Positions 9,976 to 64,000 of a stretch of DNA of 64,000 nucleotides are shown here, piece after piece. Made by a program: the position numbers and the translations under genes. This DNA is from Vicinamibacterales bacterium. Its GTDB lineage: Bacteria; Acidobacteriota; Vicinamibacteria; Vicinamibacterales; 2-12-FULL-66-21. Under the pieces are notes generated by a model. That model ran no database searches and was not told the origin of the DNA. It saw only the letters and a program-made list of their open reading frames with translations. Location: assembly GCA_035495955.1 (NCBI GenBank), contig DATJFE010000070.1, positions 29,332 through 93,331 of the forward strand, read 5' to 3'. The first letter of the stretch is position 1. Each line of letters begins with the position of its first letter.

Positions 9976-10016
9976 TACAACAAATATCTCGCCTCATGGC
10001 CGTGTGTCAACTGGAT

Positions 10017-10044
10017 CTTGGGCCTTGGGCCTTAGGCCTTGGGC
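10017..10044. repeat. Heptanucleotide tandem repeat (CTTGGGC x4; family GGCYTTG)
   Basis: Sequence reads cttgggc cttgggc cttaggc cttgggc. The array is intergenic, 8 nt beyond the stop of the C1 peptidase gene. Confidence 0.9.
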
Positions 10045-10052
10045 GTCTCCAC

Positions 10053-10829: not shown

Positions 10830-10911
10830 GCACCTGAATACGCATCGACCGCGCAACAGGTTCGCGGCGCCGCGCTGCGGAGACGGGTAGGTCGTGCACG
10901 AGATCGCCGCG

Positions 10912-13383: not shown

Positions 13384-13445
13384 ATGTGAAGGACGCTCCC
13401 GCGAGTCCTCCGTTAACCGCCTGGGAAAGGATATAGTCCCGCCAT

Positions 13446-13760
13446 ATGCCTGCGTTTGATTTCTGGTCGATGCTCTTCGTGTTCATGCTGGCGACGTTCG
13501 TCGGGTTTCAAGTGATCCAGAACGTCTCCCGCCTTCTGCACACCCCGCTGATGTCCCTGACGAACGCGATCTCGGCGATAGCCGTGGTCGGCTCGATCCT
13601 GATTGCCGGCGAGCGCGAGTCCGATCTCACGACGATCCTCGGCACCGTCGCCGTGGCGGCGTCGATGACGAATATCGTCAGCGGCTTTCTGATCACGGAT
13701 CGCATGCTCAAGATGTTCCGCGAGAAGCAGAGCGCGAAGACGGTCCGGAGCGCGCGATGA
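13446..13760 (+). CDS. pntAB: NAD(P) transhydrogenase subunit alpha, part 2 (membrane dII-alpha piece)
   Basis: 104 aa with three helices. LHTPLMSLTNAISAIAVVGS and NIVSGFLITDRMLKMF are typical of PntAB. Its stop overlaps the pntB start (ATGA). Confidence 0.85.
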   Translation: MPAFDFWSMLFVFMLATFVGFQVIQNVSRLLHTPLMSLTNAISAIAVVGSILIAGERESDLTTILGTVAVAASMTNIVSGFLITDRMLKMFREKQSAKTVRSAR

Positions 13761-15154
13761 ACGAGCATCTCATCCAGCTCAGCTACTTCGCCGCCGCCGT
13801 CCTCTTCATCATGTCGCTGCGGTGGCTGAACCATCCGCGCACGGCGCGCCGCGGCGTGCTCGCCGGCGTGCTCGGCATGACGATGGCGGTCGTCGGCACG
13901 CTGATGGCGCCGGAGATCGTCGACTACAAGTGGGTCGCCGCGGCGGTCGTGGTCGGGTTCGCAGTCGGGATTCCGCTGTCGTGGGTACCGCTGACGGCCG
14001 TCCCGGAACGGACCGCGCTGTCGCATGCGTTCGGCGGCCTTGCGGCCGGCCTGGTCGGCACGGCGAAATACATCATGTGGCGCCAGCAGTCGCAGTTGAC
14101 GACGTTCCGGACGTCCGCGATTGCGCTGGAGGTCATTCTGGGATTTCTGACGTTCACCGGCAGCCTCATGGCGGCCGGGAAGCTGCGCGAGATCATCCCG
14201 ACCCGGCCGATCACCTATCGCAATCAGAACCTGGTCAACCTGTCCCTGCTCGCGCTCGCCGTCGTCGCCGGCATCTATCTCGGCTTCGTCGATCACAACT
14301 ACTGGCAGGCGTACGCGGCGATCGTGGTGCTGTCGCTCATCTTCGGCGTCCTGCTGATCATCCCCATCGGCGGCGCGGACATGCCGACCGTCATCTCGCT
14401 CTTGAACTCATATGCCGGCCTGTCGGCGGTCGCGATGGGCTTCGTGCTCTCGAACAAGCTGCTGATCATCGCCGGCGCGCTCGACGGATCCTCGGGCTTC
14501 ATCCTGTCAGTCATCATGTGCAAGGCGATGAACCGGTCGTTCACGAACGTGCTGTTCGGCGCGTTCGGCCAGGTCCAGGCGAAGGCGGCGGCGGGCGAAG
14601 CGAAGACGGTCAAGAGCGCGACGCCGCAGGACGTCGCCGACATCATGACCGCCGCCGATCGCGTCGTCATCATCCCGGGCTACGGGATGGCGGTGGCGCA
14701 GGCGCAGCACCGCGTGCACGAGCTGTACGACCAGTTGACCAAGCGGGGGATCGACGTGAAGTTCGCCATCCATCCCGTCGCCGGCCGGATGCCCGGGCAC
14801 ATGAACGTCCTGCTCGCCGAGGCGGAGATCCCGTATGAGTCGCTGGTGGAGATGGACGACATCAATCCGGAGATGCCGCAGACCGACGTGTGCCTCGTCG
14901 TGGGGGCCAACGACGTCGTGAATCCGGCGGCGCGGCACGACAAGGGCAGCCCGATCTTCGGGATGCCGATCATCGACGCGGACAAGGCGAAGACGATCAT
15001 CGCGATCAAGCGCTCGATGAACCCCGGGTTCGCGGGAATCGACAACGAGCTGTACTACGACGACAAGACGCTGATGGCCTTCGGCGACGCGAAGCAGGTT
15101 CTCGGCGACGTCGTGAAGGCCGTCGCCGGCGAGGGATCGGCGACGGTGCACTGA
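13757..15154 (+). CDS. pntB: NAD(P) transhydrogenase subunit beta
   Basis: 465 aa. It has a multi-helix N-terminal half and a C-terminal dIII NADP(H) domain (VVIIPGYGMAVAQAQH...HPVAGRMPGHMNVLLAEA...GANDVVNPAA). Confidence 0.9.
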   Translation: MNEHLIQLSYFAAAVLFIMSLRWLNHPRTARRGVLAGVLGMTMAVVGTLMAPEIVDYKWVAAAVVVGFAVGIPLSWVPLTAVPERTALSHAFGGLAAGLVGTAKYIMWRQQSQLTTFRTSAIALEVILGFLTFTGSLMAAGKLREIIPTRPITYRNQNLVNLSLLALAVVAGIYLGFVDHNYWQAYAAIVVLSLIFGVLLIIPIGGADMPTVISLLNSYAGLSAVAMGFVLSNKLLIIAGALDGSSGFILSVIMCKAMNRSFTNVLFGAFGQVQAKAAAGEAKTVKSATPQDVADIMTAADRVVIIPGYGMAVAQAQHRVHELYDQLTKRGIDVKFAIHPVAGRMPGHMNVLLAEAEIPYESLVEMDDINPEMPQTDVCLVVGANDVVNPAARHDKGSPIFGMPIIDADKAKTIIAIKRSMNPGFAGIDNELYYDDKTLMAFGDAKQVLGDVVKAVAGEGSATVH

Positions 15155-53147: not shown

Positions 53148-53792
53148 TTGGCCCAGATCTTCCCGCCGTGGTGGAACAAGCTGCCGATCGCGGCCGCCAT
53201 CGCGGGCAGCCTCGGTCCGGCGCTCGCTGTCGCGGGGGTCTGGTACTATTTTTCGCCGTGGTACACGGACGTGGGCTACCGCCCCGTCCAGCCCGTCCCT
53301 TACAGTCATAGGCTCCACGTCGGCGAGCTCGGTCTCGATTGCCGCTATTGCCACGCCTCGGTCGAAACCTCCGCGGTCGCGAACATTCCGCCGACGCGGA
53401 CCTGCATGAACTGCCATCAGTTCGTGAAGAAGGACAGCGAGGCCCTCGCACCGATTCGGGCCAGCGCCCAGAGCGGCCGGCCGATGCGGTGGATTCGCGT
53501 CCACAAGCTTCCCGACTACGCCTATTTCACTCACAAGGCGCACGTAGCGGCCGGCATCGGCTGCGTCACCTGTCACGGCCGCATCGACGAAATGGAGACG
53601 GTCACGCAGATGACGCCTCTCAGCATGAGCTGGTGCCTCGACTGCCACCGCAACCCCGGTCCCAACAGGCGCCCCGTCTCGGAAGTCACGAACATGAAAT
53701 GGACGCCTCCCCGGGACGCCCAGGCGCGCGCCGCGCTCGATCGCGAGCGGCCCGTCAATCCGCCGACTGACTGTTCAGGGTGCCATCGGTGA
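53148..53792 (+). CDS. Pentaheme c-type cytochrome, Alternative Complex III ActA-like
   Basis: 214 aa. The TTG start follows an SD (ggag) and immediately follows an in-frame stop. It has an N-terminal anchor helix. Five CXXCH motifs are present (CRYCH, CMNCH, CVTCH, CLDCH, CSGCH). Confidence 0.85.
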   Translation: MAQIFPPWWNKLPIAAAIAGSLGPALAVAGVWYYFSPWYTDVGYRPVQPVPYSHRLHVGELGLDCRYCHASVETSAVANIPPTRTCMNCHQFVKKDSEALAPIRASAQSGRPMRWIRVHKLPDYAYFTHKAHVAAGIGCVTCHGRIDEMETVTQMTPLSMSWCLDCHRNPGPNRRPVSEVTNMKWTPPRDAQARAALDRERPVNPPTDCSGCHR

Positions 53793-56746
53793 GCCGAACC
53801 TACTGGCGAAGCCTCGCCCAGATCGAGGACCGTCCCGAATTCCGCGCCGCCCTCGAACGCGAGTTCCCCGAGGGCGCCTCCGAGCTGCCCGAAGGCATCA
53901 CGCGGCGCGAAATGATGATGCTCCTGGGCGCCTCGCTGTCGCTCGCCGGGCTCGCCGGGTGCCGCCGACCGGTCGAAGAGATTGTGCCGTTTGCCACCGC
54001 GCCCGAGGACATCGTCCCCGGGATCCCTCTTTACTACGCGACGACCATGCCGTTCCGCCGGAGCGCTTACGGTCTGATCGTCGAGAGCCACGAAGGACGG
54101 CCGACGAAGATCGAGGGAAACCCTTCGCATCCTTCGACGCTCGGGGCGTCGAGCTCCCTCGTGCAGGCGTCCGTGCTCGGTCTCTACGACCCCGACCGCT
54201 CGCAGTCGGTCATGCTGCGGGGGGCGCGAAAGGCCTGGAGCGATTTCGTCGCGGCGTGGGCACCGCTGGCCCAGGCTCACGCGGCTGACGGCGGCGCCGG
54301 TCTTGCGATTCTGTCGGAGTCGTTCTCGTCGCCGACGCTCGCACGGCTGGCCTCCGAGCTGCGCGCCCGCTATCCCCGGTTGCAGTGGGCGACCTACGAG
54401 GCCGTCAGCGACGAGAACCGCCTCGCGGGCCTGCGTTCGGCCACGGGGCGCGACGTCGATCTGATGCTCCGCTTCGATCGGGCGTCCGTCATCCTCGCGC
54501 TCGACGCCGACCCGCTTCTCGCAGACCCGGAGATGATCCGTCACGCGCGAGGTTTCGCGGCCGGAAGGCGCGCGGGGCCGTCCGGTGGCGTCATGAACCG
54601 CCTCTACGCGGTTGAAGGCGTCTATTCGCTGACGGGTGCGATGGCCGATCATCGGCTCCGCCTCGAGAGCCGGCAGATCGCTTCCTTCGTCGCGGCGCTT
54701 GCGGCGCGGATTGGCGTCTCCGGAGGCGCGAGCTCCGCGGGAACCGCCGTGCCGGGCGTCGATGCGCGTTGGATCGACGCCGTGGCCAAAGATCTTGCGG
54801 CGAACCGCGGCAAGGGACTGATCGTGGCCGGAGAGCGGCAGCCGCCCGCCGTCCACGCGGCGGTCTGCGCGCTGAACACGCATCTCGGCAACACGGGCAA
54901 GACGGTCAGCTACTACGAGACGAAGGACGCCGCGCTTCCAAGCTCCGGCTCGCTCGCCTCGCTCGTCTCCGCGATGAACGCGGGCACGATCAAGACGCTC
55001 GTCGTGCTGGGCGGCAATCCGGTCTTCGACGCGCCCGTCGACCTCGACTTCGCGTCGGCCATGGCGAAGATCCCCCATACGATCGCCCTCGGTCACGCGG
55101 TCGACGAAACCTCCGCCAGGGCGGAGTGGCACATCCCCCGCGCCCACTACCTCGAATCGTGGGGAGACGCGCGCGCCGTCGGCGGCACCCTCAGCATCGT
55201 CCAGCCGCTGATCCTCCCGCTGTTCGGCGGACGAAGCATCGTCGAAGTCCTGGGGCTGATGGTCGGCGGCCAGGATCGTCCCGGCTACGACGCCGTGCGG
55301 GACACCTGGAAGACGATCCTGGGCGAAGCCGACTTCGACAAGAAGTGGAACCGCGTCCTCAATGACGGAATCCTCGCCGGCAGCGAACTTCCGGAAGTCG
55401 TCCCAGGGAGTGCCGGGCAGCCGCAGGCAGAGCCTGCCCGAGCGTCGGGATCTCCGGACGATCTGGAGATCGTATTCCTCTCGTCACCGTCTCTTCACGA
55501 CGGCCGTTTCGCGAACAACGGATGGCTGCAGGAGCTTCCGGACCCCCTCACCAAGCTCACGTGGGACAACCCCGCGCAGATGAGCCCGAAGACCGCCGAG
55601 AAACTGGGCCTCGACAACGAAGACGTGGTCCGTATCGATTACGCGGGGCGTTCGCTCGAGATTCCGGTCTGGGTTCTTCCGGGAATGGCGGACGGCGTGG
55701 TCGCCCTGACGCTCGGCTACGGGCGTTCGCACGCGGGGCGGATCGGCTCGGGCGTCGGCTTCGACGCGTTCACGCTCCGAACCGCAAGGGCCCTGGGCTT
55801 CGACGACGGCGTCAGACTGACCAAGCTCGGACGCACGTATCCGCTCTCGGCGACCCAGCATCACGGCAGCATGGAAGGGCGGCCTCTGGTTCGCGAGTCG
55901 GCCCTGAACGAGCTTCGATCGGAATCGGCCGCGAAACGGGAAGCCGTGCCGGGCCCGCTCGGCGTCTTCGAGGAGGAGCCGCAACACTTCTCGCTCTTCA
56001 AGGAGCGTGTCTACGATCAGGGGCACCAGTGGGGGATGACGATCGATCTGAACGCGTGCATCGGGTGCAACGCGTGCATGGTCGCCTGCCAGAGCGAGAA
56101 CAACGTGCCGGTCGTCGGCAAGATCCAGGTCAGCAAGAGCCGCGAGATGCACTGGCTCCGTGTGGATCGGTACTTTTCCGGCGAGCCCTCCGGCAGTCCC
56201 GAGGTCGTCTTTCAGCCGATTCCCTGCATGCAGTGCGAGGACGCCCCGTGCGAGCAGGTCTGCCCGGTGGCCGCGACCGTTCACGACGCGCAGGGCCTCA
56301 ACGTGATGGTCTACAACCGGTGCATCGGAACGCGCTACTGCTCGAACAACTGTCCGTACAAGGTGCGCCACTTCAACTTCTTCAACTACACCAAGGACAC
56401 GCCCGACATTCTCAAGCTCGCGATGAACCCCGACGTGACGGTTCGCGCGAGGGGCGTCATGGAGAAGTGCACGTACTGCACGCAGCGGATCAATCGCGCG
56501 AAGATCGACGCGAAGCTGGCGGGCCGCGCGCTGCGTGACGGCGACGTCAAGACCGCCTGCCAGCAGGTTTGTCCCGCGTCGGCCATCGAGTTCGGCGATC
56601 TTCAGGACCGTTCGAGCCGGGTCGTCCAGGCGAAGGCCGATTCGCGCAACTACGCGCTCCTCGAGGAGCTGAACACCAAGCCGAGGACGACCTATCTGAC
56701 GAAGGTGCGCAACCCGAACCCCGATCTCAAGGGCCTGCCGGGATGA
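53780..56746 (+). CDS. ActB-like subunit: Tat-type molybdopterin-oxidoreductase fold fused to a 4-cluster Fe-S ferredoxin domain
   Basis: The N-terminus is YWRSLAQIEDRPEF...ITRREMMMLLGASLSLAG. The Cys clusters are CIGCNACMVAC, CMQCEDAPCEQVCP, CIGTRYCSNNCP and CTYC...CQQVCP. The GTG start is at 53780 or 53789, the latter forming GTGA with the actA-like stop. Confidence 0.9.
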   Translation: MPSVSRTYWRSLAQIEDRPEFRAALEREFPEGASELPEGITRREMMMLLGASLSLAGLAGCRRPVEEIVPFATAPEDIVPGIPLYYATTMPFRRSAYGLIVESHEGRPTKIEGNPSHPSTLGASSSLVQASVLGLYDPDRSQSVMLRGARKAWSDFVAAWAPLAQAHAADGGAGLAILSESFSSPTLARLASELRARYPRLQWATYEAVSDENRLAGLRSATGRDVDLMLRFDRASVILALDADPLLADPEMIRHARGFAAGRRAGPSGGVMNRLYAVEGVYSLTGAMADHRLRLESRQIASFVAALAARIGVSGGASSAGTAVPGVDARWIDAVAKDLAANRGKGLIVAGERQPPAVHAAVCALNTHLGNTGKTVSYYETKDAALPSSGSLASLVSAMNAGTIKTLVVLGGNPVFDAPVDLDFASAMAKIPHTIALGHAVDETSARAEWHIPRAHYLESWGDARAVGGTLSIVQPLILPLFGGRSIVEVLGLMVGGQDRPGYDAVRDTWKTILGEADFDKKWNRVLNDGILAGSELPEVVPGSAGQPQAEPARASGSPDDLEIVFLSSPSLHDGRFANNGWLQELPDPLTKLTWDNPAQMSPKTAEKLGLDNEDVVRIDYAGRSLEIPVWVLPGMADGVVALTLGYGRSHAGRIGSGVGFDAFTLRTARALGFDDGVRLTKLGRTYPLSATQHHGSMEGRPLVRESALNELRSESAAKREAVPGPLGVFEEEPQHFSLFKERVYDQGHQWGMTIDLNACIGCNACMVACQSENNVPVVGKIQVSKSREMHWLRVDRYFSGEPSGSPEVVFQPIPCMQCEDAPCEQVCPVAATVHDAQGLNVMVYNRCIGTRYCSNNCPYKVRHFNFFNYTKDTPDILKLAMNPDVTVRARGVMEKCTYCTQRINRAKIDAKLAGRALRDGDVKTACQQVCPASAIEFGDLQDRSSRVVQAKADSRNYALLEELNTKPRTTYLTKVRNPNPDLKGLPG

Positions 56747-57366
56747 CTCGCAGGCCTGGTGTGGTCGGCATCCTCGCGCTCACGGCCGTTGTGGGCCTCA
56801 CCGGCTGCGCGCGCGGCTGCACGTCGAGCCGTCCGCCCATCCATCCCAATCCGAGCATGGACGACCAGCCGAAAGTGCTCCCCCAGGCGGCCAGCACCTT
56901 CTTCTATGACGGCGCCGGCATGCGCGCGCCCGTTCCAGGGACGATCCCGATCGGCGGGCTGAAAGAGGATACGGCGTACTTCACGGGCAAGGGCGCGGAC
57001 GGACAATTCGTCGCCACGATCCCCGTGCCGGTAGACGATGCGCTCCGGGAGCGCGGACGACAGCGGTATTCGATTTATTGCCAGCCTTGCCACGACGCGC
57101 GTGGAGACGGCAAGGGGATCCTGTTCCAGCGCGGCAACGTTCCCACGGCCTCCTTCCACCAGGAGAAGATCCTGAAGTATCCGGACGGACAGATCTTCGA
57201 CGTCATTACGAATGGGACCGGGTTCATGTCCGGCTACCGCTGGCCGATCCCTCCCGCGGACAGGTGGGCGATCATCTCGTACGTGCGGGAGCTCGAGCGC
57301 AAGCGGCTCGCCAGCGCCTCCACCTCCGCTGAAGCGACGGCGGCCAAGCCCGCGGGGAACAAATGA
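56743..57366 (+). CDS. Monoheme cytochrome c lipoprotein, ActE-like
   Basis: The ATG overlaps the upstream stop (ATGA). It has a lipobox (LTGC) and a single CQPCH. DRWAIISYVRELE is typical of ActE as I recall it. Confidence 0.8.
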   Translation: MTRRPGVVGILALTAVVGLTGCARGCTSSRPPIHPNPSMDDQPKVLPQAASTFFYDGAGMRAPVPGTIPIGGLKEDTAYFTGKGADGQFVATIPVPVDDALRERGRQRYSIYCQPCHDARGDGKGILFQRGNVPTASFHQEKILKYPDGQIFDVITNGTGFMSGYRWPIPPADRWAIISYVRELERKRLASASTSAEATAAKPAGNK

Positions 57367-57376
57367 GGGTGGCATC

Positions 57377-59245
57377 GTGAGCAACGGCGTAATGGACGGC
57401 CGGATCAACCGGAAGGTGCTGTTCCTTCTGGGCCCCGTCGCCGGCATCGCGATGTTCCTCGGCGTCGTCTGGGCGGCGTCGCTCTTCGTGCGGCACTACG
57501 AATACAAGGAGCCGTACCGGGCGCCGGCGGCGGCGGCCGACGCCACGCCCCGCACGGAAGGCGTCGCCGCGGAGAAGGCGGACGCGGAGACCAAGGCGAA
57601 GGCGACGCCCTACGCCGAGGCTGAGTACCGCAGGTTCCCCGGCGTCGGAAGCCGCGTGGCGATCTGGTCGGTCGCGCAGCTTCACCTGCTGTTCGCCGCG
57701 TTCGTCCTTGCCGTGCCCATGTTCGCGTTCATCATCGAGGTGATCGGCTACAAGACCGGAGATCTCCGATACGACCGGCTCGCGCACGAGTTCACGAAGC
57801 TTCTCTCGGTGTCGTTCTCGCTCACCGCGACCTTCGGCGCGTTTCTGACCTTCATGCTCATCATCCTGTATCCGAAGTTCACGAACTACCTGATGAGCGT
57901 GTTCTCGCCGACGTTTCTTCCGTACGTCCTGCTCTTCTTCTTCGAGGCGTTCTTCCTCTACACGTATTACTACGGCTGGGGGAAGTTCCATCCGCTGGTG
58001 CATCTCGGCCTGGGGCTGGGACTGAACCTGGTGGGCACGGCGATCATGATGATCGCCAACGCCTGGCTCACGTTCATGACCTCGCCGCGCGGAATCTCGG
58101 ATCAGGGGGCGGTCATCTCCGTCTGGGACGCGATCAACAACTACACGTGGATGCCGATCAACGTCCACCGGTTCATCGCGAACATCGCGTTCGGCGGATC
58201 GGTGGCCGCCGCGTACGCGGCCTTCAAGTTCCTGCAGGCCGAGACCGACGAAGAGCGCGCGCACTACGACTGGATGGGATACATCGGCAACTTCGTGGCG
58301 ATCAGCGCCTTCCTGCCGCTGCCGTTCGCCGGCTACTGGCTCGCGAAGGAGATTTACGCCTTCTCGCAGACGCTGGGACTCACGCTGATGGGCGGCGCCT
58401 TCTCCTGGCTGTTCATCATCCAGGCCGTTCTGATCGGGAATCTCTTCCTCGCCGCCAACTACTACCTCTGGCTCGGGATGGGCCGCGTCGAGGGCGTGCA
58501 GCCGCTCCAGAAGTTCATCAAGTACCTGCTCTTCGCGATCACGCTCTGCTTCATGGTCTGGGCCACGCCGCGATCGATTATCGCCACCGTGTCCGAGCTG
58601 CGGGCGATGGGCGGAGGGGCGCACCCGGTTCTCGGCTACCTCGGCGTCATGTCCGCCAAGAACACCGCCGTGAACATCCTGATCCTGACGACGTTCATGA
58701 GCTTTCTTCTGTATCGACGGACGGGAAAAGTCGCGACCGTGTCGTGGGCGAAGACGGGCCACGCCGTGCAGCTCGCGATCTTCGCGGCCGCGGCCTTCGT
58801 CGTGATCTTCCTCGGCATCTACGGGTACTTCGTCGAGGCGACCGTCCGCATCCGCCTCTCGGTGCCGCAGGTCAGCTCCGTCCTCATCGCCATGATCTCG
58901 ATCACCATCGTCGACGTCTTTCTGTTTCACGGCGCGACGAGGACCGGCGAGGTGCGGTGGGGGCACATCCCGAGGGTCTCGCAGTACGTCCTGATCTTCA
59001 TCGCGGTCACGTTCACCTGGCTCATGGGGCTCATGGGCTACGTCAGGTCCGGCCTCCGTCAGCACTGGCACGTGTACGGCGTCATGCGGGATCGGTCGCC
59101 CGACGCGTTCACGCCCACCCTGGGCTTCGCGACGAAGGTCGTCTCGGTGACCGTCCTCATGTTCTTCCTCCTGATCGGGGTCGTGTTCTGGATCTCGAGC
59201 CTGCACGACAAGCCCGACTTCGAAAGGAGGACGGGGACGTCATGA
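57377..59245 (+). CDS. Cytochrome bd ubiquinol-oxidase subunit I (CydA)-like membrane protein, roughly 14 helices, no Q-loop
   Basis: Homology-like blocks to CydA are SVAQLHLLFAAF (His19 position), LLFFFEAFFLYTYYYGW (Glu99 position), IMMIANAWLTFMTSPRG and NVHRFIANIAFGG (His186 position). An extra N-terminal helix and about 5 extra C-terminal helices are present. The start is GTG 57377 or ATG 57392. Confidence 0.8.
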   Translation: MSNGVMDGRINRKVLFLLGPVAGIAMFLGVVWAASLFVRHYEYKEPYRAPAAAADATPRTEGVAAEKADAETKAKATPYAEAEYRRFPGVGSRVAIWSVAQLHLLFAAFVLAVPMFAFIIEVIGYKTGDLRYDRLAHEFTKLLSVSFSLTATFGAFLTFMLIILYPKFTNYLMSVFSPTFLPYVLLFFFEAFFLYTYYYGWGKFHPLVHLGLGLGLNLVGTAIMMIANAWLTFMTSPRGISDQGAVISVWDAINNYTWMPINVHRFIANIAFGGSVAAAYAAFKFLQAETDEERAHYDWMGYIGNFVAISAFLPLPFAGYWLAKEIYAFSQTLGLTLMGGAFSWLFIIQAVLIGNLFLAANYYLWLGMGRVEGVQPLQKFIKYLLFAITLCFMVWATPRSIIATVSELRAMGGGAHPVLGYLGVMSAKNTAVNILILTTFMSFLLYRRTGKVATVSWAKTGHAVQLAIFAAAAFVVIFLGIYGYFVEATVRIRLSVPQVSSVLIAMISITIVDVFLFHGATRTGEVRWGHIPRVSQYVLIFIAVTFTWLMGLMGYVRSGLRQHWHVYGVMRDRSPDAFTPTLGFATKVVSVTVLMFFLLIGVVFWISSLHDKPDFERRTGTS

Positions 59246-59808
59246 AGATCCCCCTCATCCTTCGCATCGGCGCCCTCGTCGTCGCGACGACCGGGTTCTA
59301 TACGTATGTCGGCCAGATGGTGCCGCAGAAGGAAGTGCAGCCTCCCGCCGAAATCGTCCTCAGAACGGATCTGACGACGGCGGACATGGTGAAGGTGGGC
59401 CGGGAGATCATGGAGGGCAAGGGGCTCTGCTTTACCTGCCACACGATAGGCAAGACCGGGGCGCTCCGGTTCCCGGATCTGGCGGGAGTCGATACTCGCG
59501 CGAAGACCCGCAAGCCGGGCTTCACTGACGTCCAGTACTTCGCCGAGACGCTGTACGAACCGAACGCTTTCATCGTGCCTGGCTTCAATCCGGGGATGCC
59601 GACCATCAACAAGCCTCCGATCGGCCTCACCGATCAGGAGATCCTCTGCGTCATCGCGTACCTGCAGACGCTGGGCGGCACACCGACGGTCACGCTCCAG
59701 ACGAAACACCAGTACAACGCCGGCACGGCGACCCCGACGACGCCATCCTCGGGCGTCTCGCCGGGTGGAGCGCAGCCTGAAGCGACAATCAAGAAAGAGA
59801 AAGGATGA
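59242..59808 (+). CDS. Membrane-anchored monoheme c-type cytochrome
   Basis: The ATG overlaps the upstream stop (ATGA), and an SD (aaggagga) precedes it. It has an N-terminal helix, a single CFTCH and a Pro/Thr-rich tail. Confidence 0.75.
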   Translation: MKIPLILRIGALVVATTGFYTYVGQMVPQKEVQPPAEIVLRTDLTTADMVKVGREIMEGKGLCFTCHTIGKTGALRFPDLAGVDTRAKTRKPGFTDVQYFAETLYEPNAFIVPGFNPGMPTINKPPIGLTDQEILCVIAYLQTLGGTPTVTLQTKHQYNAGTATPTTPSSGVSPGGAQPEATIKKEKG

Positions 59809-60623
59809 AGCTCCTCATCGTTCTCGTCGTGGCGGTCGTCTTCGCGGTGCTCCGCTTCATGCGGGTCAATCTGCTGATATGGGCTGGCGCATGGTGGATC
59901 GGCATCTACGTCCTCCTGCGATTCGGCTTCACGGCGCCGATTCCCTCGTCGGTCATCACGATCTACATGGGGATCGTCTCGCTCGCGATCCTGGCCTACG
60001 TATCGTCCAGCCAGCAACGCCGCGAGGAAGTCTCGGGTCCGCTCGTCCGGTTCATGACGGACAAGCGGTACACAGTGTTGCTTGCCGCGACCGTCGTCGC
60101 CATCCCGGCGATCGCGGCGGCCAACGTCTACGTGCGGATGAACGTTCCCATCGAGCCTCCGCTCTTCTCGCGGACCGTGCATCCCGCGTCGCCGGCGGAC
60201 GTCACGGTTCACGGCAAGCGGATCGATCTCGATGCCGGCGAAAACCCCTTCCGTCATCTCGAGACGTCGGATGCCCAGGAGTTCCGCAAACACGTCGAGA
60301 ACGGGCGCCGCGTCTACTACCAGAATTGCGTCTTCTGCCACGGCGACAACCTGGCCGGCAACGGCATGTTCGTCCACGGACTGGATCCGATTCCCACGAA
60401 TTTCAGCGACAAGGGCACGATCCCGATGCTTCGCGAGACCTTTCTGTTCTGGCGAATCTCGAAAGGAGGGCCCGGGCTGCCCGATGAAGGCGGGCCGTGG
60501 GACACGGCGATGCCGCCGTGGGAGAAGTTCCTGAAAGAGGACGAGATGTGGGACGCGATTCTCTTCCTCTACGACTTCACGGGGTCCAGGCCTCGCGCCA
60601 GGGAGGAGACCGCGGCGAAATGA
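59805..60623 (+). CDS. Four-helix membrane protein fused to a C-terminal monoheme cytochrome c domain
   Basis: The ATG overlaps the upstream stop (ATGA). It has four hydrophobic helices, then CVFCH and GGPWDTAMPPWEKFL. Confidence 0.75.
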   Translation: MKLLIVLVVAVVFAVLRFMRVNLLIWAGAWWIGIYVLLRFGFTAPIPSSVITIYMGIVSLAILAYVSSSQQRREEVSGPLVRFMTDKRYTVLLAATVVAIPAIAAANVYVRMNVPIEPPLFSRTVHPASPADVTVHGKRIDLDAGENPFRHLETSDAQEFRKHVENGRRVYYQNCVFCHGDNLAGNGMFVHGLDPIPTNFSDKGTIPMLRETFLFWRISKGGPGLPDEGGPWDTAMPPWEKFLKEDEMWDAILFLYDFTGSRPRAREETAAK

Positions 60624-62362
60624 GCTTCTCCCGGATAGGTTTGCGCGCGTGTCTCGCGGCCTTCATCGTCTGGGTGTGTGCCCTGCTGACAGGACTGACC
60701 GGATCGGTGCGCGCGGCGGCTCCCGACATCGGAACCGACGCGCAGCGAACGGCGGGCAAGACGCTCTACTTCAAGTACTGCTCGCAGTGCCACGGCGAGA
60801 AGGGTGACGGCGAAGGCTACGCCGCGCCGCATCTGCGTCCGCGGCCCCGCAACTTCACCGCGGGGAAGTTCAAGATCCGCACGACGCCCAACGGCGCGCT
60901 CCCGACCCATCAGGATCTCGTCAACATCATCAGGCGCGGCATGCCCTACACGTCGATGCCCGCCTGGTCCAATTTCTCCGACTCGGAAGTGTCGGACCTC
61001 GCGTACTTCCTGACGACCTTCTCGGCGGACTTCTCGGATCCCGAAAAAGTTCCGAAGCCCGTTTCGCTCCCGAGCGCGCCGAAATCGACGAAAGAGTCGA
61101 TCGAGCTGGGGAAAAAACTCTACGAGGAAAACGGCTGCGTGAAGTGCCACGGCACGCTCGGCCGGGGCGACGGACCGTCGGCGCCGACGCTGGTCGACGA
61201 GTGGGGGCATCCGATACGCCCGGCGGACCTCACGCAGCGCTGGACGTTCCGCGGAGGCTCGTCCCGCGAGGACATCTTCCGGACGATGAGCACGGGACTG
61301 AACGGCACGCCCATGCCGTCGTTCGCCGATGCGCTGAAGGACGATCAGCGATGGGCGATCACCAACTTCATCGATTCTCTCTCGAGCAGCAACGGTCCAG
61401 GCTATACGAATCTGGTGATCGCCAAGCACGTCGACGATCCGATCGATCTGTCCAAGGGGGCGGCGAACTTCGAATCCGCGCGGATCGCACGCTTTCCGAT
61501 CATCGGACAGATTACCGAGCCCGTCCGCGAGTTCCATCCTCCGGCGACGTCGGTGACGGTGCAGGCCGTCTACGATGCCGACTCGATCGCGCTGCTCGTG
61601 CGATGGCATGACATGAGCGCGCAGAAGACCGGGAAGAACGGACCCTCGCTGCCCGTGCCGCAGACGGAGGAGGAGGAACCGGCCGCCGCCGCCGGCCCGA
61701 CGTCGCAAAACCCCTTCGGCGAGGCGGAAGTCACGCCGACGCCGGCCGGGCAGCCGCCAGCCGGCGCCCAGCCGCCCGCGGCGAACCCGTTTGCCGAGGA
61801 GGCGGCGCCAACCGCCCCCCCGTCCGAGTTCTCCGACGCGGTGGCGATCCAGATTCCATCGCAGGTGCCGACAGGTGCCCGCAAGCCGTACTTCATCTTC
61901 GGCGATTCGCAGAACTCGGTGGATCTCTGGTTCTTCGATCTGGCGCGCCCGGCTCCCCTTCAGTTCACCGGGAAGGGAAGCGGCGACATCGCGCCGAACG
62001 ACACGGGGGATATCACCGGCGTCGCCAGCTACGACCAGGGAGAATGGTCGGTGATTTTCAAGCGGCCGCTGCGCGCCGGCTCGGGCGCCCCGCTCTCCTC
62101 CGGACAGTTCATGCCGATCGCGTTCTCGGTCTGGGATGGGCTCTCGCGCGAGCGCGGCAACCGGCGCGGTCTCTCGGTGTGGTACTCGCTCTACCTCGGG
62201 CCCGAAGAAGTGCCGTCGGTTGTCGGGCCGATGATCGAGACGGCGCTCGTCATTCTCGCCATCGAGCTGGCCGTCATCGGCTGGGTGCGGTGGCGCTACG
62301 GCTCTCGCGCGCGCAAAACGCTCGGCGGAGAACCGAGCGAACCGGCCCCCACGAGAGCATGA
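60620..62362 (+). CDS. Diheme cytochrome c fused to an EB_dh/DOMON-like heme-binding domain with C-terminal anchor helix
   Basis: The ATG overlaps the upstream stop (ATGA). It has CSQCH and CVKCH. The C-terminal half (SDAVAIQIP...VDLWFFD...WSVIFKRPL...PIAFSVWDGLSRERGNRRGLSVWYSLYL) resembles the ethylbenzene-dehydrogenase gamma-type domain, recalled from memory. Confidence 0.7.
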   Translation: MSFSRIGLRACLAAFIVWVCALLTGLTGSVRAAAPDIGTDAQRTAGKTLYFKYCSQCHGEKGDGEGYAAPHLRPRPRNFTAGKFKIRTTPNGALPTHQDLVNIIRRGMPYTSMPAWSNFSDSEVSDLAYFLTTFSADFSDPEKVPKPVSLPSAPKSTKESIELGKKLYEENGCVKCHGTLGRGDGPSAPTLVDEWGHPIRPADLTQRWTFRGGSSREDIFRTMSTGLNGTPMPSFADALKDDQRWAITNFIDSLSSSNGPGYTNLVIAKHVDDPIDLSKGAANFESARIARFPIIGQITEPVREFHPPATSVTVQAVYDADSIALLVRWHDMSAQKTGKNGPSLPVPQTEEEEPAAAAGPTSQNPFGEAEVTPTPAGQPPAGAQPPAANPFAEEAAPTAPPSEFSDAVAIQIPSQVPTGARKPYFIFGDSQNSVDLWFFDLARPAPLQFTGKGSGDIAPNDTGDITGVASYDQGEWSVIFKRPLRAGSGAPLSSGQFMPIAFSVWDGLSRERGNRRGLSVWYSLYLGPEEVPSVVGPMIETALVILAIELAVIGWVRWRYGSRARKTLGGEPSEPAPTRA

Positions 62363-62376: not shown

Positions 62377-64000
62377 ATGTACAAGAGCATCTACGTTCCC
62401 GTCGATAACTCGGACCACTCCAACCGCGCCGTCGTCTGCGCCCTCGGACTGGGCAAGGCGTATTCGGCCAAACTGGTCGGCTGCCACGTCTACGCCGCAA
62501 AGCTGCACGACTATCGCTTCCGGCAGATGGAGTACACGCTGCCCGAGGAATACATCGACGAAGTGGAGCTGGAGCGGCAGCGGAAGATCCACGACAGCCT
62601 GATCACGATGGGGCTCAAGCTCATCTCCGACAGCTATCTCGACGGCATGTCGCGTCTGTGCGGGGAATCCGGGCTCGAATTCGAGCCGCGGATGATGGAT
62701 GGAAAACATCACACCGAGATCCTGAAGGACCTCGCCGGATCGCAGCACGACCTGGTCGTGATCGGCGCGCTCGGGATCGGCCGCGCCCGCGACAGCGTCA
62801 TCGGATCCGTGTGTGAACGCGTCGCCCGCCAGGCCGACCGCGACGTCTGGGTGGTCAAGCACGTGCCCGAGCCGGACGAGCCCGACCGCGACACGATTCT
62901 GGTCGGCGTCGACGGCAGTCCGCAGTCGTTCGGCGCGCTGATGACGGCGATCGATCTGGCGCGGACGTTCGGCAAGAAGGTCGAAACGATCGCCGTGTAC
63001 GATCCCTATCTCCACTACTCCGTCTTCAACGGCATCGTCAACGTCCTGACCGAGCAGGCGGCGAAGGTGTTCCGCTTCGAGGAGCAGAATCAGCTCCACG
63101 AAGAGATCATCGACACCGGACTCGCGCAGATCTACCAGTCGCATCTCGAGGTCAGCGAGAAGATGGCGAACGAGGCGGGCGTCGAAGTCAAGAAGACGCT
63201 CCTCGACGGCAAGCCCTTCCAGAAGATTCTCGACCACGCGCGCAAGACGAATCCCTGGCTCATCGTGCTGGGGCGGATCGGCGTCCACAGCCCGAAGAAC
63301 GAGACCGGGCTGGGCAGCAACGTCGAGAACATCCTTCGCGGGGCGCCATGCGACGTGCTCCTCTCCACGCGCATCGAAGTCCCGCGGCTCGACGTGCGCG
63401 CCGAGGAAACGGTCCGGTGGACCCCCGAGGCCGAGGCGCGGATGAAGAACGTGCCGGAGCAGGTCAAGGGGATCGCGCGCACCGGCGTGCTGCGGCTCGC
63501 GCTCGAAAAGGGGCACTCGGTGATCACGAGCGCCGTGATCGACGAAGCGATGGATCGGTTCATGCCGAAGAGCGCGTCGGCCGCCACCAAGGCGCTCGCC
63601 GAGGCCGTGGCGCTCGAACGCGCGAAGTCCGGCCCGGTGTCGATCTGCCGGTCGTGCGGCGTCGCCGCCACGCAGAGCGGGGCCGTCACGTGCACCGTGT
63701 GCGGGTCCACCGACTTCGACGTGATCTCGCAGGAGATGATCGAGAAGATCGCCGCCGTCGAGGGCGGGCTCGAGGAGGAGACGACCTACGACGGCCGGAA
63801 GCTGCGCTGGTCCGAGGAGGCGCGGAAGGGACTCTGGACGATGAAGAACGCGTACCAGCGGCGCCGCGTCAAGGCGCGCGTCGAGAAGCGCGCGCGCATG
63901 ATGAAGCTCGACGCGATCACGCTCGACTTCGCGCGACAGGTGATCGAGGAGGAGACCGGTGCGCCATTGGAGATCGCCGGAGGGGAGCGGGGCTTTGGGG
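62377..64000 (+). CDS. Tandem universal-stress-protein (Usp) domains fused to two PCP-reductase-like domains and a Cys4 ribbon (3' partial, runs off the window)
   Basis: My own translation gives MYKSIYVPVDNSDHS...VVIGALGIGR (Usp 1) and ILVGVDGSPQS...LIVLGRIGVHS (Usp 2). Then come VRWTPEAEARMKNVPEQVKGIARTGV, CRSCG-x13-CTVCG and LRWSEEARKGLWTMKNAYQRRRVKARVEK. The ORF is not in the supplied track because it has no stop inside the window. Confidence 0.75.
   Translation, partial: MYKSIYVPVDNSDHSNRAVVCALGLGKAYSAKLVGCHVYAAKLHDYRFRQMEYTLPEEYIDEVELERQRKIHDSLITMGLKLISDSYLDGMSRLCGESGLEFEPRMMDGKHHTEILKDLAGSQHDLVVIGALGIGRARDSVIGSVCERVARQADRDVWVVKHVPEPDEPDRDTILVGVDGSPQSFGALMTAIDLARTFGKKVETIAVYDPYLHYSVFNGIVNVLTEQAAKVFRFEEQNQLHEEIIDTGLAQIYQSHLEVSEKMANEAGVEVKKTLLDGKPFQKILDHARKTNPWLIVLGRIGVHSPKNETGLGSNVENILRGAPCDVLLSTRIEVPRLDVRAEETVRWTPEAEARMKNVPEQVKGIARTGVLRLALEKGHSVITSAVIDEAMDRFMPKSASAATKALAEAVALERAKSGPVSICRSCGVAATQSGAVTCTVCGSTDFDVISQEMIEKIAAVEGGLEEETTYDGRKLRWSEEARKGLWTMKNAYQRRRVKARVEKRARMMKLDAITLDFARQVIEEETGAPLEIAGGERGFG

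What the first reader, a model, noticed from the sequence alone, without database searches (positions are those of the whole stretch)
57377..59245. CydA homologue retains b-heme ligand positions but has no Q-loop and carries extra terminal helices
**Seen in sequence.** His in SVAQLHLLF (codon at 57683-57685) aligns by eye with E. coli CydA His19. Glu in FFFEAFF (57944-57946) aligns with Glu99. His in NVHRFIAN (58166-58168) aligns with His186. A Met in LTLMGG sits at the start of the seventh core helix, the candidate Met393 position.

The hydrophilic segment between core helices 6 and 7 (WLAKEIYAFSQT) is only about 10-15 residues. Canonical CydA carries a Q-loop of more than 100 residues there, with the quinol-binding Lys and Glu.

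The protein has one additional N-terminal helix followed by an Ala/Glu/Lys-rich linker of about 55 aa. It also has about five additional C-terminal helices.

**Inference.** The protein is probably not a quinol oxidase. It may take electrons from the co-encoded c-type cytochromes. Its terminal chemistry (O2, NO or none) is open.
Basis: partly seen in the sequence, partly recalled or inferred. Interest (0 to 1): 0.7.

Follow-up and report, generated by a model that had tools for sequence, protein, structure and literature searches.

The report
Cytochrome bd-like oxidase without Q-loop
This gene encodes a soil-acidobacterial member of an already described but never purified family of "cytochrome bd-like" membrane haem proteins that lack the quinol-binding loop and sit in an operon full of c-type cytochromes. 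The find is real and mostly read correctly, but it is not new.

Summary
The ORF 57377-59245 (622 aa) is a genuine CydA homologue: Pfam PF01654 scores 85.7 bits, hhalign gives 98.2%, and the ten best Foldseek hits are all CydA chains.

**What holds up**
- His103 aligns with His19 and His264 with His186.
- There is no Q-loop, and Lys252 is replaced by Leu333.
- An extra N-terminal hydrophobic helix and a disordered linker are present.

**What needs correcting**
- The Glu in FFFEAFF (E190) aligns with Glu107, not Glu99. The Glu99 position is Tyr183.
- The Glu445 position is not acidic (Ser558).
- The Met393 equivalent is unresolved (Met338 or Met425).
- The extra helices number four and are internal, not five and C-terminal. 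The last two helices match CydA TM8-9.

**Identity and context**
These features match the published OR-N2 "bd-like oxidase" subfamily known from Nitrospira, Nitrospina and anammox bacteria: 14 TM helices, the Tyr/Glu/Ser signature, and an operon with cytochromes c and an EbdC/NxrC-like protein. Among related loci, 68 of 69 keep this four-gene module. In Acidobacteriota, ActA-ActB-ActE of alternative complex III lie directly upstream, without the NrfD-type ActC.

**Function**
The most likely role is a cytochrome c-fed, quinol-loop-independent reductase, probably of O2. This has not been tested biochemically. I class it as a new member of a known kind, of moderate interest.

The parts
57377..59245 (+). 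CydA-like (bd-like oxidase, OR-N2-type) gene, 622 aa, 14 predicted TM helices
   Evidence: Pfam PF01654 85.7 bits; hhalign 98.2% to canonical CydA; Foldseek top 10 all CydA; AF2 pLDDT 83
57398..57499 (+). Extra N-terminal hydrophobic helix (res 8-41). It is either a signal anchor or a cleavable signal peptide.
   Evidence: Hydropathy; AF2 helix 8-41 at pLDDT about 60; a hydrophobic N-terminus is present but variable in relatives
57500..57649 (+). Ala/Glu/Lys-rich periplasmic linker (res 42-91), poorly conserved
   Evidence: pLDDT below 50 for 41-63 and 75-81; composition; relative P0156 carries a CxxCH cytochrome c motif in this linker
57650..58363 (+). Core equivalent to CydA TM1-6 (res 92-329). 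Carries His103 (=His19), Tyr183 (Glu99 position), Glu190 (=Glu107), His209 (=His126), Asn228 (=Asn148) and His264 (=His186).
   Evidence: hhalign residue pairs; phmmer/hmmsearch alignments; conservation 24-32 of 33; codons checked
58364..58402 (+). Short periplasmic connection where canonical CydA has the Q-loop. Contains Leu333 (=Lys252 position) and Met338.
   Evidence: AF2 secondary structure; hhalign ends at L333=K252
58403..58924 (+). Region 343-516 with five helices. One (419-448, with Met425 and Lys428, or alternatively 343-368) is the equivalent of CydA TM7. The other four are family-specific insertions. The conserved periplasmic loop 396-418 carries Pro398, Glu407 and His416.
   Evidence: AF2; segment-wise hhalign favours 412-455 as TM7 (score 19.7 against 8-15 for the others); conservation; OR-N2 table M430/N434
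58973..59203 (+). Last two helices (533-560, 582-609), equivalent to CydA TM8-9. They flank the conserved loop R557-S558-x-x-R561-Q-H-W564-H565, where Ser558 sits at the Glu445 position.
   Evidence: hmmsearch second domains on three CydA chains align RQxW; hhalign of the C-terminal halves E 1.5e-4; conservation
53148..53792 (+). ActA-like pentahaem cytochrome c
   Evidence: 6f0k_A E 6.6e-73; Pfam multihaem families
53780..56746 (+). ActB-like protein: Tat-exported, molybdopterin-like domain fused to a 4-cluster Fe-S domain
   Evidence: 8k9e_B E=0, 6f0k_B 1.3e-301; TIGR04519 Tat-variant signal above cut-off, QrcB/QrcC-like
56743..57366 (+). ActE-like monohaem cytochrome c with a lipobox-like N-terminus (LTGC)
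   Evidence: 6f0k_E E 1.6e-53
59242..59808 (+). Membrane-anchored monohaem cytochrome c (cytc2). Its start overlaps the CydA-like stop codon (ATGA).
   Evidence: Pfam Cytochrom_C; junction; fused to the CydA-like C-terminus in P0121/P0136/P0122
59805..60623 (+). Protein with about 4 TM helices plus a C-terminal monohaem cytochrome c domain (cytc3)
   Evidence: Pfam; only the haem domain has PDB relatives; conserved in the module
60620..62362 (+). Signal peptide + dihaem cytochrome c + EbdC/NxrC-like (EB_dh) domain + C-terminal TM anchor
   Evidence: Pfam Cytochrom_C x2 and EB_dh; 6h5l_B 1.5e-57, 2ivf_C 6e-8, 7b04_C; downstream of the CydA-like gene in 68/69 loci
62377..64000 (+). Usp + PCP_red domain protein (runs off the window). 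Conserved last gene of the cluster.
   Evidence: Pfam Usp 140.7 bits, PCP_red 48.7 bits; present in 57/64 loci with enough downstream sequence

Best explanation
The gene encodes the haem-binding membrane subunit of an OR-N2-type "cytochrome bd-like" respiratory complex.

**Shown**
- It shares the CydA fold.
- It keeps the His19-type haem ligand in the TM1-4 bundle (His103).
- It keeps the His186-type ligand of the low-spin haem (His264).
- It keeps part of the proton pathway to the P-side haem site (Glu190=Glu107, His209=His126, Asn228=Asn148).
- It has no Q-loop or quinol-binding Lys/Glu.
- It is encoded in a tightly coupled operon with three cytochrome-c-containing membrane or periplasmic proteins.

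**Inferred**
- Electrons enter from the periplasmic side through the c-haems of cytc2, cytc3 and the dihaem/EbdC-like protein.
- They reach the His264-ligated b-haem. Its sixth ligand is Met425 or Met338, or possibly His416.
- They pass to a reaction-site haem under His103. There a proton-consuming reduction takes place, most probably O2 to water, with protons drawn from the cytoplasm via the Glu190 channel. This would give a proton-motive force without pumping, as in cytochrome bd.
- The third haem site is remodelled: Tyr183 replaces Glu99 and Ser558 replaces Glu445, and a family-specific conserved His565 lies nearby.
- In this acidobacterium the co-transcribed ActA (5 haems), ActB (Fe-S) and ActE form an additional periplasmic wire that docks onto the same membrane module in place of their usual NrfD-type partner.
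For: - Homology and fold.
- Ligand and channel residues and their conservation.
- Absence of the quinol site.
- The residue signature matches the OR-N2 reference row of Murali et al., Table S6: H, Y, E, H, H, M/N, S, W, Y, Y, with 14 TM helices. The OR-N2 operon description, multiple cytochromes c plus an EbdC homologue, also matches.
- Full-length homology to Nitrospira/Manganitrophaceae and Nitrospinae-bin proteins.
- The module is conserved in 68/69 loci. Cyt c fusions are seen. Gene starts overlap the preceding stop codons.
- Literature proposes an O2-reductase role for this family. All analysed Nitrospira genomes lack canonical haem-copper oxidases (PMC6606698). NIDE0901-like OR-N2 is named as the likely terminal oxidase (PMC12342949). 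The TO_1 cluster lies at the 98th expression percentile in an aerobic Mn oxidiser.
- ActA/B/E identities.
Against: - No OR-N enzyme has been purified in the literature I could search, so O2 reduction is only inferred.
- Two of the residues that hold the di-haem site in E. coli (Glu99, Glu445) are not conserved. Glu190 is kept in only 24 of 33 relatives.
- Relatives of this organism also encode haem-copper oxidases, in 11 of 46 loci within 10 kb. An extra oxidase is therefore not obligatory.
- The module also occurs in anaerobic anammox bacteria according to PMC3578206 and PMC6606698. That argues against an exclusively O2-reducing role.
- The EbdC-like domain lacks the Met/Lys haem-b ligands.
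- I had no model coordinates, so the haem pockets could not be inspected.
Confidence: 0.5

Rival explanations
1. The module is not an oxidase but a quinone-interacting electron hub, an "alternative complex III-like" device. The CydA-like protein binds quinol or quinone at a site other than the Q-loop. Its b-haems connect the quinone pool with periplasmic c-haems and the ActAB Fe-S/haem wire. Flow could run forward (quinol to cytochrome c to haem-copper oxidase) or in reverse.
For: - In 41 of 61 loci the CydA-like gene follows ActA-ActB-ActE directly, in the part of the operon where ACIII places its quinol-binding ActC.
- Haem-copper oxidase genes lie next to the cluster in L001 and in 11 of 46 loci, mirroring ACIII-caa3 gene clusters.
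- Rhodothermales loci carry ActC/ActE and COX genes a few kb upstream of the module.
- Lucker 2013 and Mundinger 2019 proposed just this role for the Nitrospina/Nitrospira/anammox module.
Against: - No quinol-binding motif is known or detectable. Lys252 and Glu257 are absent.
- In solved cytochrome bd structures all the haems lie on the periplasmic side (my knowledge of those structures). With that haem arrangement, electron transfer across the membrane is not possible.
- Keeping a cytoplasm-to-haem proton channel (Glu190, His209, Asn228) is hard to explain for a mere wire.
- The module occurs without any Act genes in 20 of 61 loci.
Confidence: 0.25
2. It is a quinol:O2 oxidase after all. Quinol would be oxidised somewhere in the ActABE/bd-like assembly, or at a new site made by the inserted helices, and O2 would be reduced at the His103 haem.
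For: - Act proteins come from a quinol oxidoreductase.
- ACIII followed by an OR-N5 bd-like oxygen reductase is a known gene arrangement in Nitrospirales (PMC12342949).
Against: - There is no NrfD-type ActC/ActF in the operon or anywhere in the 64-kb window. The canonical paralogous act operon in L009 does have one.
- In ACIII the quinol site lies in ActC (PMC10100899, describes ActC as the menaquinol-oxidising subunit).
- Q-loop residues are absent.
Confidence: 0.1
3. The reaction-site haem handles another small molecule, such as NO, H2O2 or nitrite, rather than O2. This would be a detoxifying or alternative respiratory reductase fed by cytochrome c.
For: - The di-haem site is remodelled (Tyr183, Ser558, conserved His416 and His565).
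- According to the literature the module is present in anaerobic anammox bacteria.
- The dihaem c domain is closely related (1.5e-57) to 6h5l_B. From memory, and not checked here, 6H5L is an anammox (Kuenenia) complex of an octahaem hydroxylamine-oxidoreductase-like protein with its dihaem cytochrome c partner.
Against: There is no positive evidence for any specific substrate. The family is abundant in aerobic soil Acidobacteriota and Rhodothermales, and O2 is the parsimonious acceptor there.
Confidence: 0.1

Closest known systems
OR-N2 subfamily of the cytochrome bd superfamily (Murali, Gennis & Hemp 2021). It corresponds to the "cytochrome bd-like oxidases" of Nitrospira, Nitrospina and Kuenenia (Lucker 2010/2013; Mundinger 2019) and to the TO_1 cluster of Ca. 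Manganitrophus.
   Same: - 14 TM helices; the N-terminal half aligns with CydA; no Q-loop or quinol residues.
- Residue signature His / Tyr (Glu99 position) / Glu (Glu107) / His126 / His186 / Met-x3-Asn / Ser (Glu445 position) / Trp.
- Operon with two membrane cytochromes c and a roughly 60-kDa dihaem-c + EbdC/NxrC-like protein with a TM anchor.
- No second cydA-like gene in the operon.
   Different: - The host is a Vicinamibacteria-type acidobacterium, not a nitrifier, and there is no NXR nearby.
- ActA-ActB-ActE are fused into the operon upstream. I did not find this described for OR-N2.
- The EbdC-like domain here lacks the Met/Lys haem-b ligands.
Canonical cytochrome bd subunit I (CydA; qOR1-3), e.g. 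E. coli bd-I (6RKO) and G. thermodenitrificans (5DOQ)
   Same: - The fold, and TM1-6 sequence homology.
- Equivalents of His19, Glu107, His126, Asn148 and His186.
- The R-Q-x-W loop after TM8.
   Different: - No Q-loop, Lys252 or Glu257.
- Glu99 is replaced by Tyr, and Glu445 by Ser.
- One extra N-terminal and four extra internal helices.
- No CydB or CydX gene in the window.
- Partners are cytochromes c rather than quinol.
OR-C family (cytochrome bd homologues with haem c motifs in subunit I)
   Same: It lacks the quinol site and its presumed donor is cytochrome c.
   Different: OR-C proteins have 8 TM helices and CxxCH motifs in the same polypeptide. This protein has 14 helices, one Cys and no CxxCH. 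Only some relatives carry a fused cytochrome c.
Alternative complex III (ActABCDEF; R. marinus 6F0K), and the ACIII + OR-N5 bd-like clusters of Nitrospirales and Ca. Manganitrophus (TO_3)
   Same: - The upstream genes are close homologues of ActA, ActB and ActE (E 7e-73, 1e-301, 2e-53).
- Gene-level coupling of ACIII parts with a bd-like protein is already known.
   Different: - There is no NrfD-type ActC/ActF and no ActD in the operon or the window.
- The bd-like partner is OR-N2 with its cytochrome c/EbdC-like set, not an OR-N5 CydAA' pair.

Membership tests
Cytochrome bd superfamily (CydA fold, PF01654) | Significant match to the subunit I profile, and the CydA fold | tested here: met
   Pfam 85.7 bits against GA 26.2; hhalign 98.2%; Foldseek top 10 CydA, prob 1.00
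Cytochrome bd superfamily | Conserved His19-type haem ligand in TM1 | tested here: met
   His103 pairs with His19; kept in 31/33 relatives
qOR (quinol-oxidising cytochrome bd, canonical CydA) | Periplasmic Q-loop between TM6 and TM7 with Lys252 and Glu257 | tested here: not met
   13-residue link; Leu333 at the Lys252 position, after which the alignment ends
qOR | Glu99 and Glu445 at the di-haem site; Met393 as second ligand of haem b558 | tested here: not met
   Tyr183 at Glu99; Ser558 or Leu552 at Glu445; Met393 equivalent ambiguous, Met338 or Met425
qOR | Partner subunit CydB (and CydX/S) encoded alongside | tested here: not met
   No CydB-like sequence in the window by tblastn; none of the neighbours hits a CydB family
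OR-C | CxxCH haem c motif(s) in the CydA-like polypeptide; about 8 TM helices | tested here: not met
   No CxxCH, a single Cys, 14 helices
OR-N (Murali et al. 2021) | CydA homologue without a quinol site, in an operon with alternative electron donors | tested here: met
   family definition quoted
OR-N2 | 14 TM helices | tested here: met
   AF2 secondary structure and hydropathy give 14; Table S6 lists 14
OR-N2 | Signature Tyr at Glu99, Glu at Glu107, His126, His186, Met/Asn near Met393, Ser at Glu445, Trp six residues on. OR-N1 instead has Gly at Glu107. | tested here: met
   Y183, E190, H209, H264, M425/N429, S558, W564, against the reference row Y183, E190, H213, H269, M430/N434, S563, W569
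OR-N2 | Operon with multiple cytochromes c and an EbdC homologue | tested here: met
   conserved in 68/69 loci
OR-N2 | Placement inside the OR-N2 clade in a phylogeny, or by the authors' HMM classifier | not tested
Only full-length homology to Nitrospira/Manganitrophaceae- and Nitrospinae-labelled proteins was shown.
OR-N2 / bd-like oxidase | Binds b-type haems and reduces O2 | not testable with these tools
   Needs purification and spectroscopy. No characterised member was found in the literature searches.
Alternative complex III (for the neighbouring genes) | ActA pentahaem, ActB MoCo-like/Fe-S fusion with Tat signal, ActE monohaem | tested here: met
Alternative complex III | NrfD-type quinol-binding membrane subunits ActC (and ActF) | tested here: not met
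   No NrfD hit among the operon genes. tblastn with an ActC fragment from L009 finds nothing in the window at E<=1. ActC is present in the separate act operon of L009.

The most novel reading that the evidence does not exclude
In Acidobacteriota the periplasmic arm of alternative complex III (ActA, ActB, ActE) has been cut loose from its NrfD-type quinol-binding subunits. It has been spliced, at operon level, onto an OR-N2 bd-like haem protein with its own cytochrome c set. If these eight gene products form one complex, it would be a respiratory assembly of a type not yet described: an Fe-S/multihaem wire plugged into a CydA-type reaction centre. A NirJ2/AhbD-like radical-SAM enzyme and two PCP_red-domain proteins are conserved in the neighbourhood, so the complex might also use a modified tetrapyrrole.
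Probability: 0.25. Interest if true: 0.7.

Novelty: new member of a known kind. Interest (0 to 1): 0.35.

Why it matters
**Abundance and ignorance.** The bd-like (OR-N) proteins are abundant. The word-index search gave more than 7,800 relatives, and at least 582 candidate stretches in a species-level genome set encode one. Here they come mostly from soil Acidobacteriota and Rhodothermales. Yet no member has been purified. Their electron donor, haem content and substrate are all inferred.

**What it would mean if they are oxidases.** If they are cytochrome-c-fed oxygen reductases, they would be a third kind of cytochrome c oxidase beside the haem-copper enzymes. Many soil bacteria would then need their respiratory budgets re-annotated, because these genes are currently labelled "cytochrome bd ubiquinol oxidase subunit I".

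**What this locus adds.** This locus adds no new principle. It does show that the module is not tied to nitrite oxidation. It also documents a tight operon fusion with ActA/B/E that lacks ActC. That gives a clean natural experiment on what the ACIII periplasmic arm does.

Tried and rejected
- **Q-loop elsewhere: rejected.** Apart from the N-terminal linker, which is low-complexity, unconserved and of low pLDDT, periplasmic loops are at most about 23 residues. hhalign stops at the Lys252 position.
- **Extra helices as a fused CydB: rejected.** There are only four extra helices. CydB chains hit the model only weakly (E 0.02-0.25), as expected from the fold that CydA and CydB share. The window has no CydB homologue.
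- **Residue-level superposition on 6RKO/5DOQ: not possible.** The tools return no coordinates. The Met338 versus Met425 question therefore rests on weak profile alignments: C-terminal hhalign 52%, and segment scores of 19.7 against 9.6.
- **Exact look-up of the window protein in public assemblies:** not on record.
- **cytc3 membrane domain against the PDB:** no relative, and it is not ActD.
- **Literature searches for an ActAB + OR-N2 arrangement or a purified bd-like enzyme:** nothing specific. Only ACIII + OR-N5 / TO_3 turned up.
- **The Nitrospira/Manganitrophaceae representative P0271** proved to be a solitary paralogue beside a NuoF-like gene. P0160 is also solitary. Neither helped with the module's context.
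- **Pseudogene or spurious ORF: rejected.** The reading frame is intact, GC3 is 0.90, and there are thousands of full-length homologues.
Full report
**1. What is at 57377-59245**

The + strand carries an intact ORF from a GTG at 57377 to a TGA at 59243-59245, 622 codons. A GAGGG Shine-Dalgarno-like motif lies just upstream. Close homologues begin with the same VSNGV/MTNGV N-terminus.

The gene sits in a run of eight + strand genes whose starts overlap or abut the preceding stops (ATGA at 56743, 59242, 59805 and 60620). It is therefore one cistron of an operon.

Pfam places residues 92-327 on positions 2-238 of the 418-position Cyt_bd_oxida_I model (E 3.2e-24, 85.7 bits against a gathering score of 26.2). 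phmmer against PDB sequences finds only CydA chains:
- M. smegmatis bd-II, 9r2g_A: 2e-15
- G. thermodenitrificans, 5doq_A: 8e-11
- E. coli bd-I and bd-II: about 1e-5

In every case only the N-terminal half matches.

I built a 48-sequence alignment of diverse relatives and a 7-sequence alignment of canonical CydA from E. coli, Kocuria, Halobaculum, Ralstonia, Rahnella, Rhizobium and Acetobacter. The two match with hhalign probability 98.2% over residues 97-333 against E. coli 13-252.

An AlphaFold2 model built on the family alignment is confident (mean pLDDT 83, pTM 0.82). Its ten best Foldseek matches in the PDB are all CydA chains (E 2.5e-9 to 1.6e-6, probability 1.00, TM-score normalised to the target 0.52-0.60). 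Homology to cytochrome bd subunit I is beyond chance.

**2.

Three independent alignments agree on the following pairs:

| This protein | E. coli CydA |
|---|---|
| His103 | His19 |
| His264 | His186 |
| His209 | His126 |
| Asn228 | Asn148 |

FFFEAFF pairs with FFLEST of E. coli, so Glu190 corresponds to Glu107. In the G. thermodenitrificans alignment the motif M-E-TFAFFF-E lies over P-Y-VLLFFF-E. That puts Tyr183 at the Glu99/Glu101 position.

Among 33 relatives less than 62% identical to the query, conservation is as follows:

| Residue | Kept in (of 33) |
|---|---|
| His103 | 31 |
| His209 | 32 |
| His264 | 31 |
| Tyr183 | 30 |
| Glu190 | 24 |

The conserved loop R557-S-G-L-R-Q-H-W564 lies over VAE(445)YGRQPW of three CydA chains in weak second-domain alignments. 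It does so again in an hhalign of the C-terminal halves (E 1.5e-4, probability 52%). Glu445 then corresponds to Ser558 without a gap, or to Leu552 with one. Neither is acidic. The column is Ser in 23 of 33 relatives and Glu or Asp in only 4.

So "retains b-heme ligand positions" holds for the two histidines. It is wrong for Glu99, does not hold for Glu445, and is undecided for Met393.

**3. Met393, the missing Q-loop and the extra helices**

The model has 14 helices:
- 8-41
- six helices that match CydA TM1-6 (92-127, 130-164, 166-199, 206-235, 258-287, 291-329)
- a short helix, 331-338
- then 343-368, 376-395, 419-448, 458-484, 488-516, 533-560 and 582-609

Counting Lys and Arg in the printed sequence shows that the basic residues cluster in the loops that an N-in/C-in topology puts in the cytoplasm. 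This is my own reading of the sequence, not a computed prediction.

The connection after helix 6 is about 13 residues. Leu333 falls on the quinol-site Lys252, and the profile alignment ends there. No other hydrophilic segment could stand in for a Q-loop.

The extra helices are not C-terminal. The last two helices, with the R-Q-x-W loop between them, are the equivalents of CydA TM8-9.

I scored each helix after the TM1-6 core, with TM1 and TM5 as controls, against the canonical TM7 profile. The segment 412-455 scores best (19.7, E 2.8e-4), against 9.6 for the segment carrying Met338 and 8-15 for the rest. That favours helix 419-448 as TM7. Met425 lies six residues into it, the same depth as His264 in TM5, next to the nearly invariant Lys428.

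Under this reading two helices replace the Q-loop, and two more are inserted between TM7 and TM8. The published OR-N2 alignment makes the same choice (M430/N434 in a reference whose numbering runs five ahead of ours in this region). Met338 and Met425 are equally conserved (26 of 33 each). I had no model coordinates, so the sixth ligand remains open. The conserved His416 (25 of 33) and His565 (25 of 33) on the periplasmic face are further candidates for haem ligation. That last point is inference only.

**4. It is a member of a described family**

They report 14 transmembrane helices, an N-terminal part that aligns with CydA with the haem b ligands conserved, membrane helices in place of the Q-loop, and none of the quinol-binding residues. 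They add that the protein might act like an alternative complex III if it can bind quinone.

Murali, Gennis and Hemp 2021 (bioRxiv 10.1101/2021.01.16.426971) classified such proteins as the OR-N family. For OR-N2 they list 14 helices, operons with multiple cytochromes c and an EbdC homologue, often no second cydA-like gene, and the residue row H99, Y183, E190, H213, H269, M430/N434, S563, W569, Y197, Y199. Ours reads H103, Y183, E190, H209, H264, M425/N429, S558, W564, Y197, Y199. OR-N1 has Gly at the Glu107 position and pet genes in its operon, so it does not fit.

Further links to the family:
- Mundinger et al. 2019 (PMC6606698) describe the same four-gene module in Nitrospira: a bd-like oxidase, two membrane cytochromes c, and an "alternative NxrC" of about 62 kDa with two haem c motifs and one TM helix. 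It is among the 40 most transcribed genes.
- Yu et al. 2021 call a similar cluster TO_1 in Ca. Manganitrophus.
- A 2025 survey names the NIDE0901-like OR-N2 as the likely terminal oxidase of Nitrospirales (PMC12342949).
- Representative relatives of our protein, with full-length matches, are labelled Nitrospira sp./Ca. Manganitrophaceae (cluster of P0149, E 1e-115) and come from a Nitrospinae bin (P0136).

I did not run the authors' classifier. Subfamily membership therefore rests on signature, helix count and operon content.

**5. Surroundings and comparative context**

The operon reads as follows:

| Coordinates | Product | Evidence |
|---|---|---|
| 53148-53792 | ActA | 6f0k_A 7e-73 |
| 53780-56746 | ActB | 6f0k_B 1e-301; Tat-variant signal TIGR04519 |
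| 56743-57366 | ActE | 6f0k_E 2e-53 |
| 57377-59245 | the CydA-like gene | see sections 1-4 |
| 59242-59808 | membrane-anchored monohaem cytochrome c | Pfam |
| 59805-60623 | about four TM helices plus a monohaem c domain | Pfam |
| 60620-62362 | dihaem c + EB_dh domain + TM anchor | Pfam, PDB |
| 62377 onwards | Usp + PCP_red protein | Pfam |

. Genes upstream of 53148 are unrelated: an MFS transporter, a phosphatase and an FG-GAP protein.

The 80 best are mostly Vicinamibacteria, Thermoanaerobaculia and Polarisedimenticolia. They also include Rhodothermales, Myxococcota, Calditrichia, Fibrobacteria, Rokubacteria and Chloroflexi. In these loci:
- the dihaem/EbdC-like gene follows the CydA-like gene and its two cytochromes c in 68 of 69 loci with enough downstream sequence;
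- ActA-ActB-ActE lie directly upstream in 41 of 61 (essentially the Acidobacteriota-type loci) and are absent in Rhodothermales and others;
- the Usp/PCP_red gene follows in 57 of 64.

In some relatives the first cytochrome c is fused to the C-terminus of the CydA-like protein (P0121, P0136, P0122). P0156 has a CxxCH in the N-terminal linker. These fusions argue for physical contact on the periplasmic side.

There is no NrfD-type ActC in the operon or anywhere in the window. In the related MAG locus L009 a second, divergent act operon with about 45%-identical ActA/ActB does continue into an NrfD-family gene. The ActABE set attached to the bd-like module is therefore a paralogue that has lost, or never had, the quinol-binding arm.

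Haem-copper oxidase genes lie within 10 kb in 11 of 46 loci. In L001 they sit immediately upstream of ActA.

**6. How it most likely works**

*Shown.* It is a CydA-fold protein. It keeps the TM1 and TM5 haem histidines and part of the cytoplasmic proton pathway. It lacks the quinol loop. It is co-inherited, and sometimes fused, with c-type cytochromes.

*Inferred.* Periplasmic c-haems deliver electrons to the His264 haem and on to a haem under His103. There a proton-consuming reduction, most plausibly of O2, occurs with protons taken from the cytoplasm. This would be electrogenic without pumping, as in cytochrome bd. The site that holds the third haem in E. coli is remodelled (Tyr183, Ser558). 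In Acidobacteriota the ActA/ActB/ActE arm probably docks on the same membrane module.

I give this model about 0.5.

*Rivals.*
- The main rival (0.25) is the older idea that the module is a quinone-interacting, ACIII-like hub rather than an oxidase. The gene order, the neighbouring haem-copper oxidases and the reported presence of the module in anaerobic anammox bacteria favour it. The lack of any quinone site and the retained proton channel count against it.
- A quinol oxidase using a novel quinone site: about 0.1.
- A reductase of another small molecule: about 0.1.

None of these can be settled without coordinates or biochemistry.

**7. Novelty and verdict**

It rediscovers a family recognised since 2010-2013 and classified in 2021.

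What may be new is the acidobacterial operon fusion of ActA/B/E, without ActC, to an OR-N2 module. ACIII next to OR-N5-type bd-like genes, and TO_3 of Ca. Manganitrophus, are already known. I found no description of this particular arrangement, though the searchable library is incomplete.

Classification: new member of a known kind. Interest: 0.35. The score is held up mainly because the family is abundant and still uncharacterised.

Noticed in passing
window 60620-62362 (Phe427 codon 61898-61900; Arg516 codon 62165-62167): The EbdC/NxrC-like (EB_dh) domain lacks both axial haem-b ligands. The Met and Lys of EbdC (2ivf_C M108, K201) and of NxrC align with Phe427 and Arg516. Across 71 orthologues of this module the columns are Phe in 59/71 and Arg in 69/71. 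The usual label "periplasmic cytochrome b" may therefore not apply to this orthologous group.
   Followed up: partly
window 62377-64000 (runs off the end): A cytoplasmic protein with two Usp domains, a PCP_red domain (the C-terminal domain of protochlorophyllide reductase subunit B) and a Cys-rich stretch follows the operon. It is conserved downstream of the module in 57 of 64 loci across phyla.
   Followed up: partly
L068:14899-16203; also L041, L064, L002 (20119-21432), L010, L026 and others: A radical SAM/SPASM protein lies in 31 of the related loci. It is most similar to NirJ2/AhbD (haem d1 / haem b synthase relatives; 352 and 306 bits, below the equivalog cut-offs of 500) and carries a C-terminal PCP_red domain. 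It sits directly after the EbdC-like gene in Rhodothermales and Calditrichia, and about 4 kb further downstream in Acidobacteriota, beyond this window. This hints at a tetrapyrrole modification linked to the module.
   Followed up: partly
window 53148-57366; L009:1-4693 (minus strand): ActA, ActB and ActE of alternative complex III are encoded without any NrfD-type ActC/ActF. The related MAG locus L009 carries, divergently, a second act operon (ActA/ActB about 45% identical) that does continue into an NrfD-family gene.
   Followed up: yes
L001:562-5321; also L004, L010, L020, L068, L069, L071, L079: Haem-copper cytochrome c oxidase genes (SCO1, COX2-cyt c, COX1, COX3, COX4) lie immediately upstream of the ActA-...-bd-like cluster in a relative 87% identical to the window protein. 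They lie within 10 kb in 11 of 46 loci. In this window they are not present upstream.
   Followed up: partly
P0121, P0122, P0136 (C-terminal extensions); P0156 (residue 70): Natural fusions occur. In some lineages the CydA-like protein carries the downstream membrane-anchored cytochrome c, with one or two CxxCH motifs, at its C-terminus. One Fibrobacterota protein has a cytochrome c motif inside the periplasmic N-terminal linker.
   Followed up: yes
L091 (Nitrospinae-bin contig UOGE01000106.1), L089/L090, L092: The family is modular. One relative sits with two MrpD-like antiporter subunits, an EB_dh multihaem protein and a cytochrome b (like the published TO_2 cluster). A Nitrospira/Manganitrophaceae paralogue is solitary next to a NuoF-like gene. 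Another distant relative is solitary among unrelated genes.
   Followed up: no
L054 (Myxococcota MAG), 3949-8765 (minus strand) and 10001-14828 (plus strand): Two divergent copies of the whole four-gene module lie back to back on opposite strands. The second copy is only 37-48% identical in the CydA-like protein.
   Followed up: no
window 57377-59245, residues His416, Lys428, His565: Three family-specific residues on the predicted periplasmic face have no counterpart in canonical CydA: His416 (25/33), Lys428 (32/33) and His565 (25/33). They are candidates for replacement haem or metal ligands. Their positions in 3D could not be checked.
   Followed up: no
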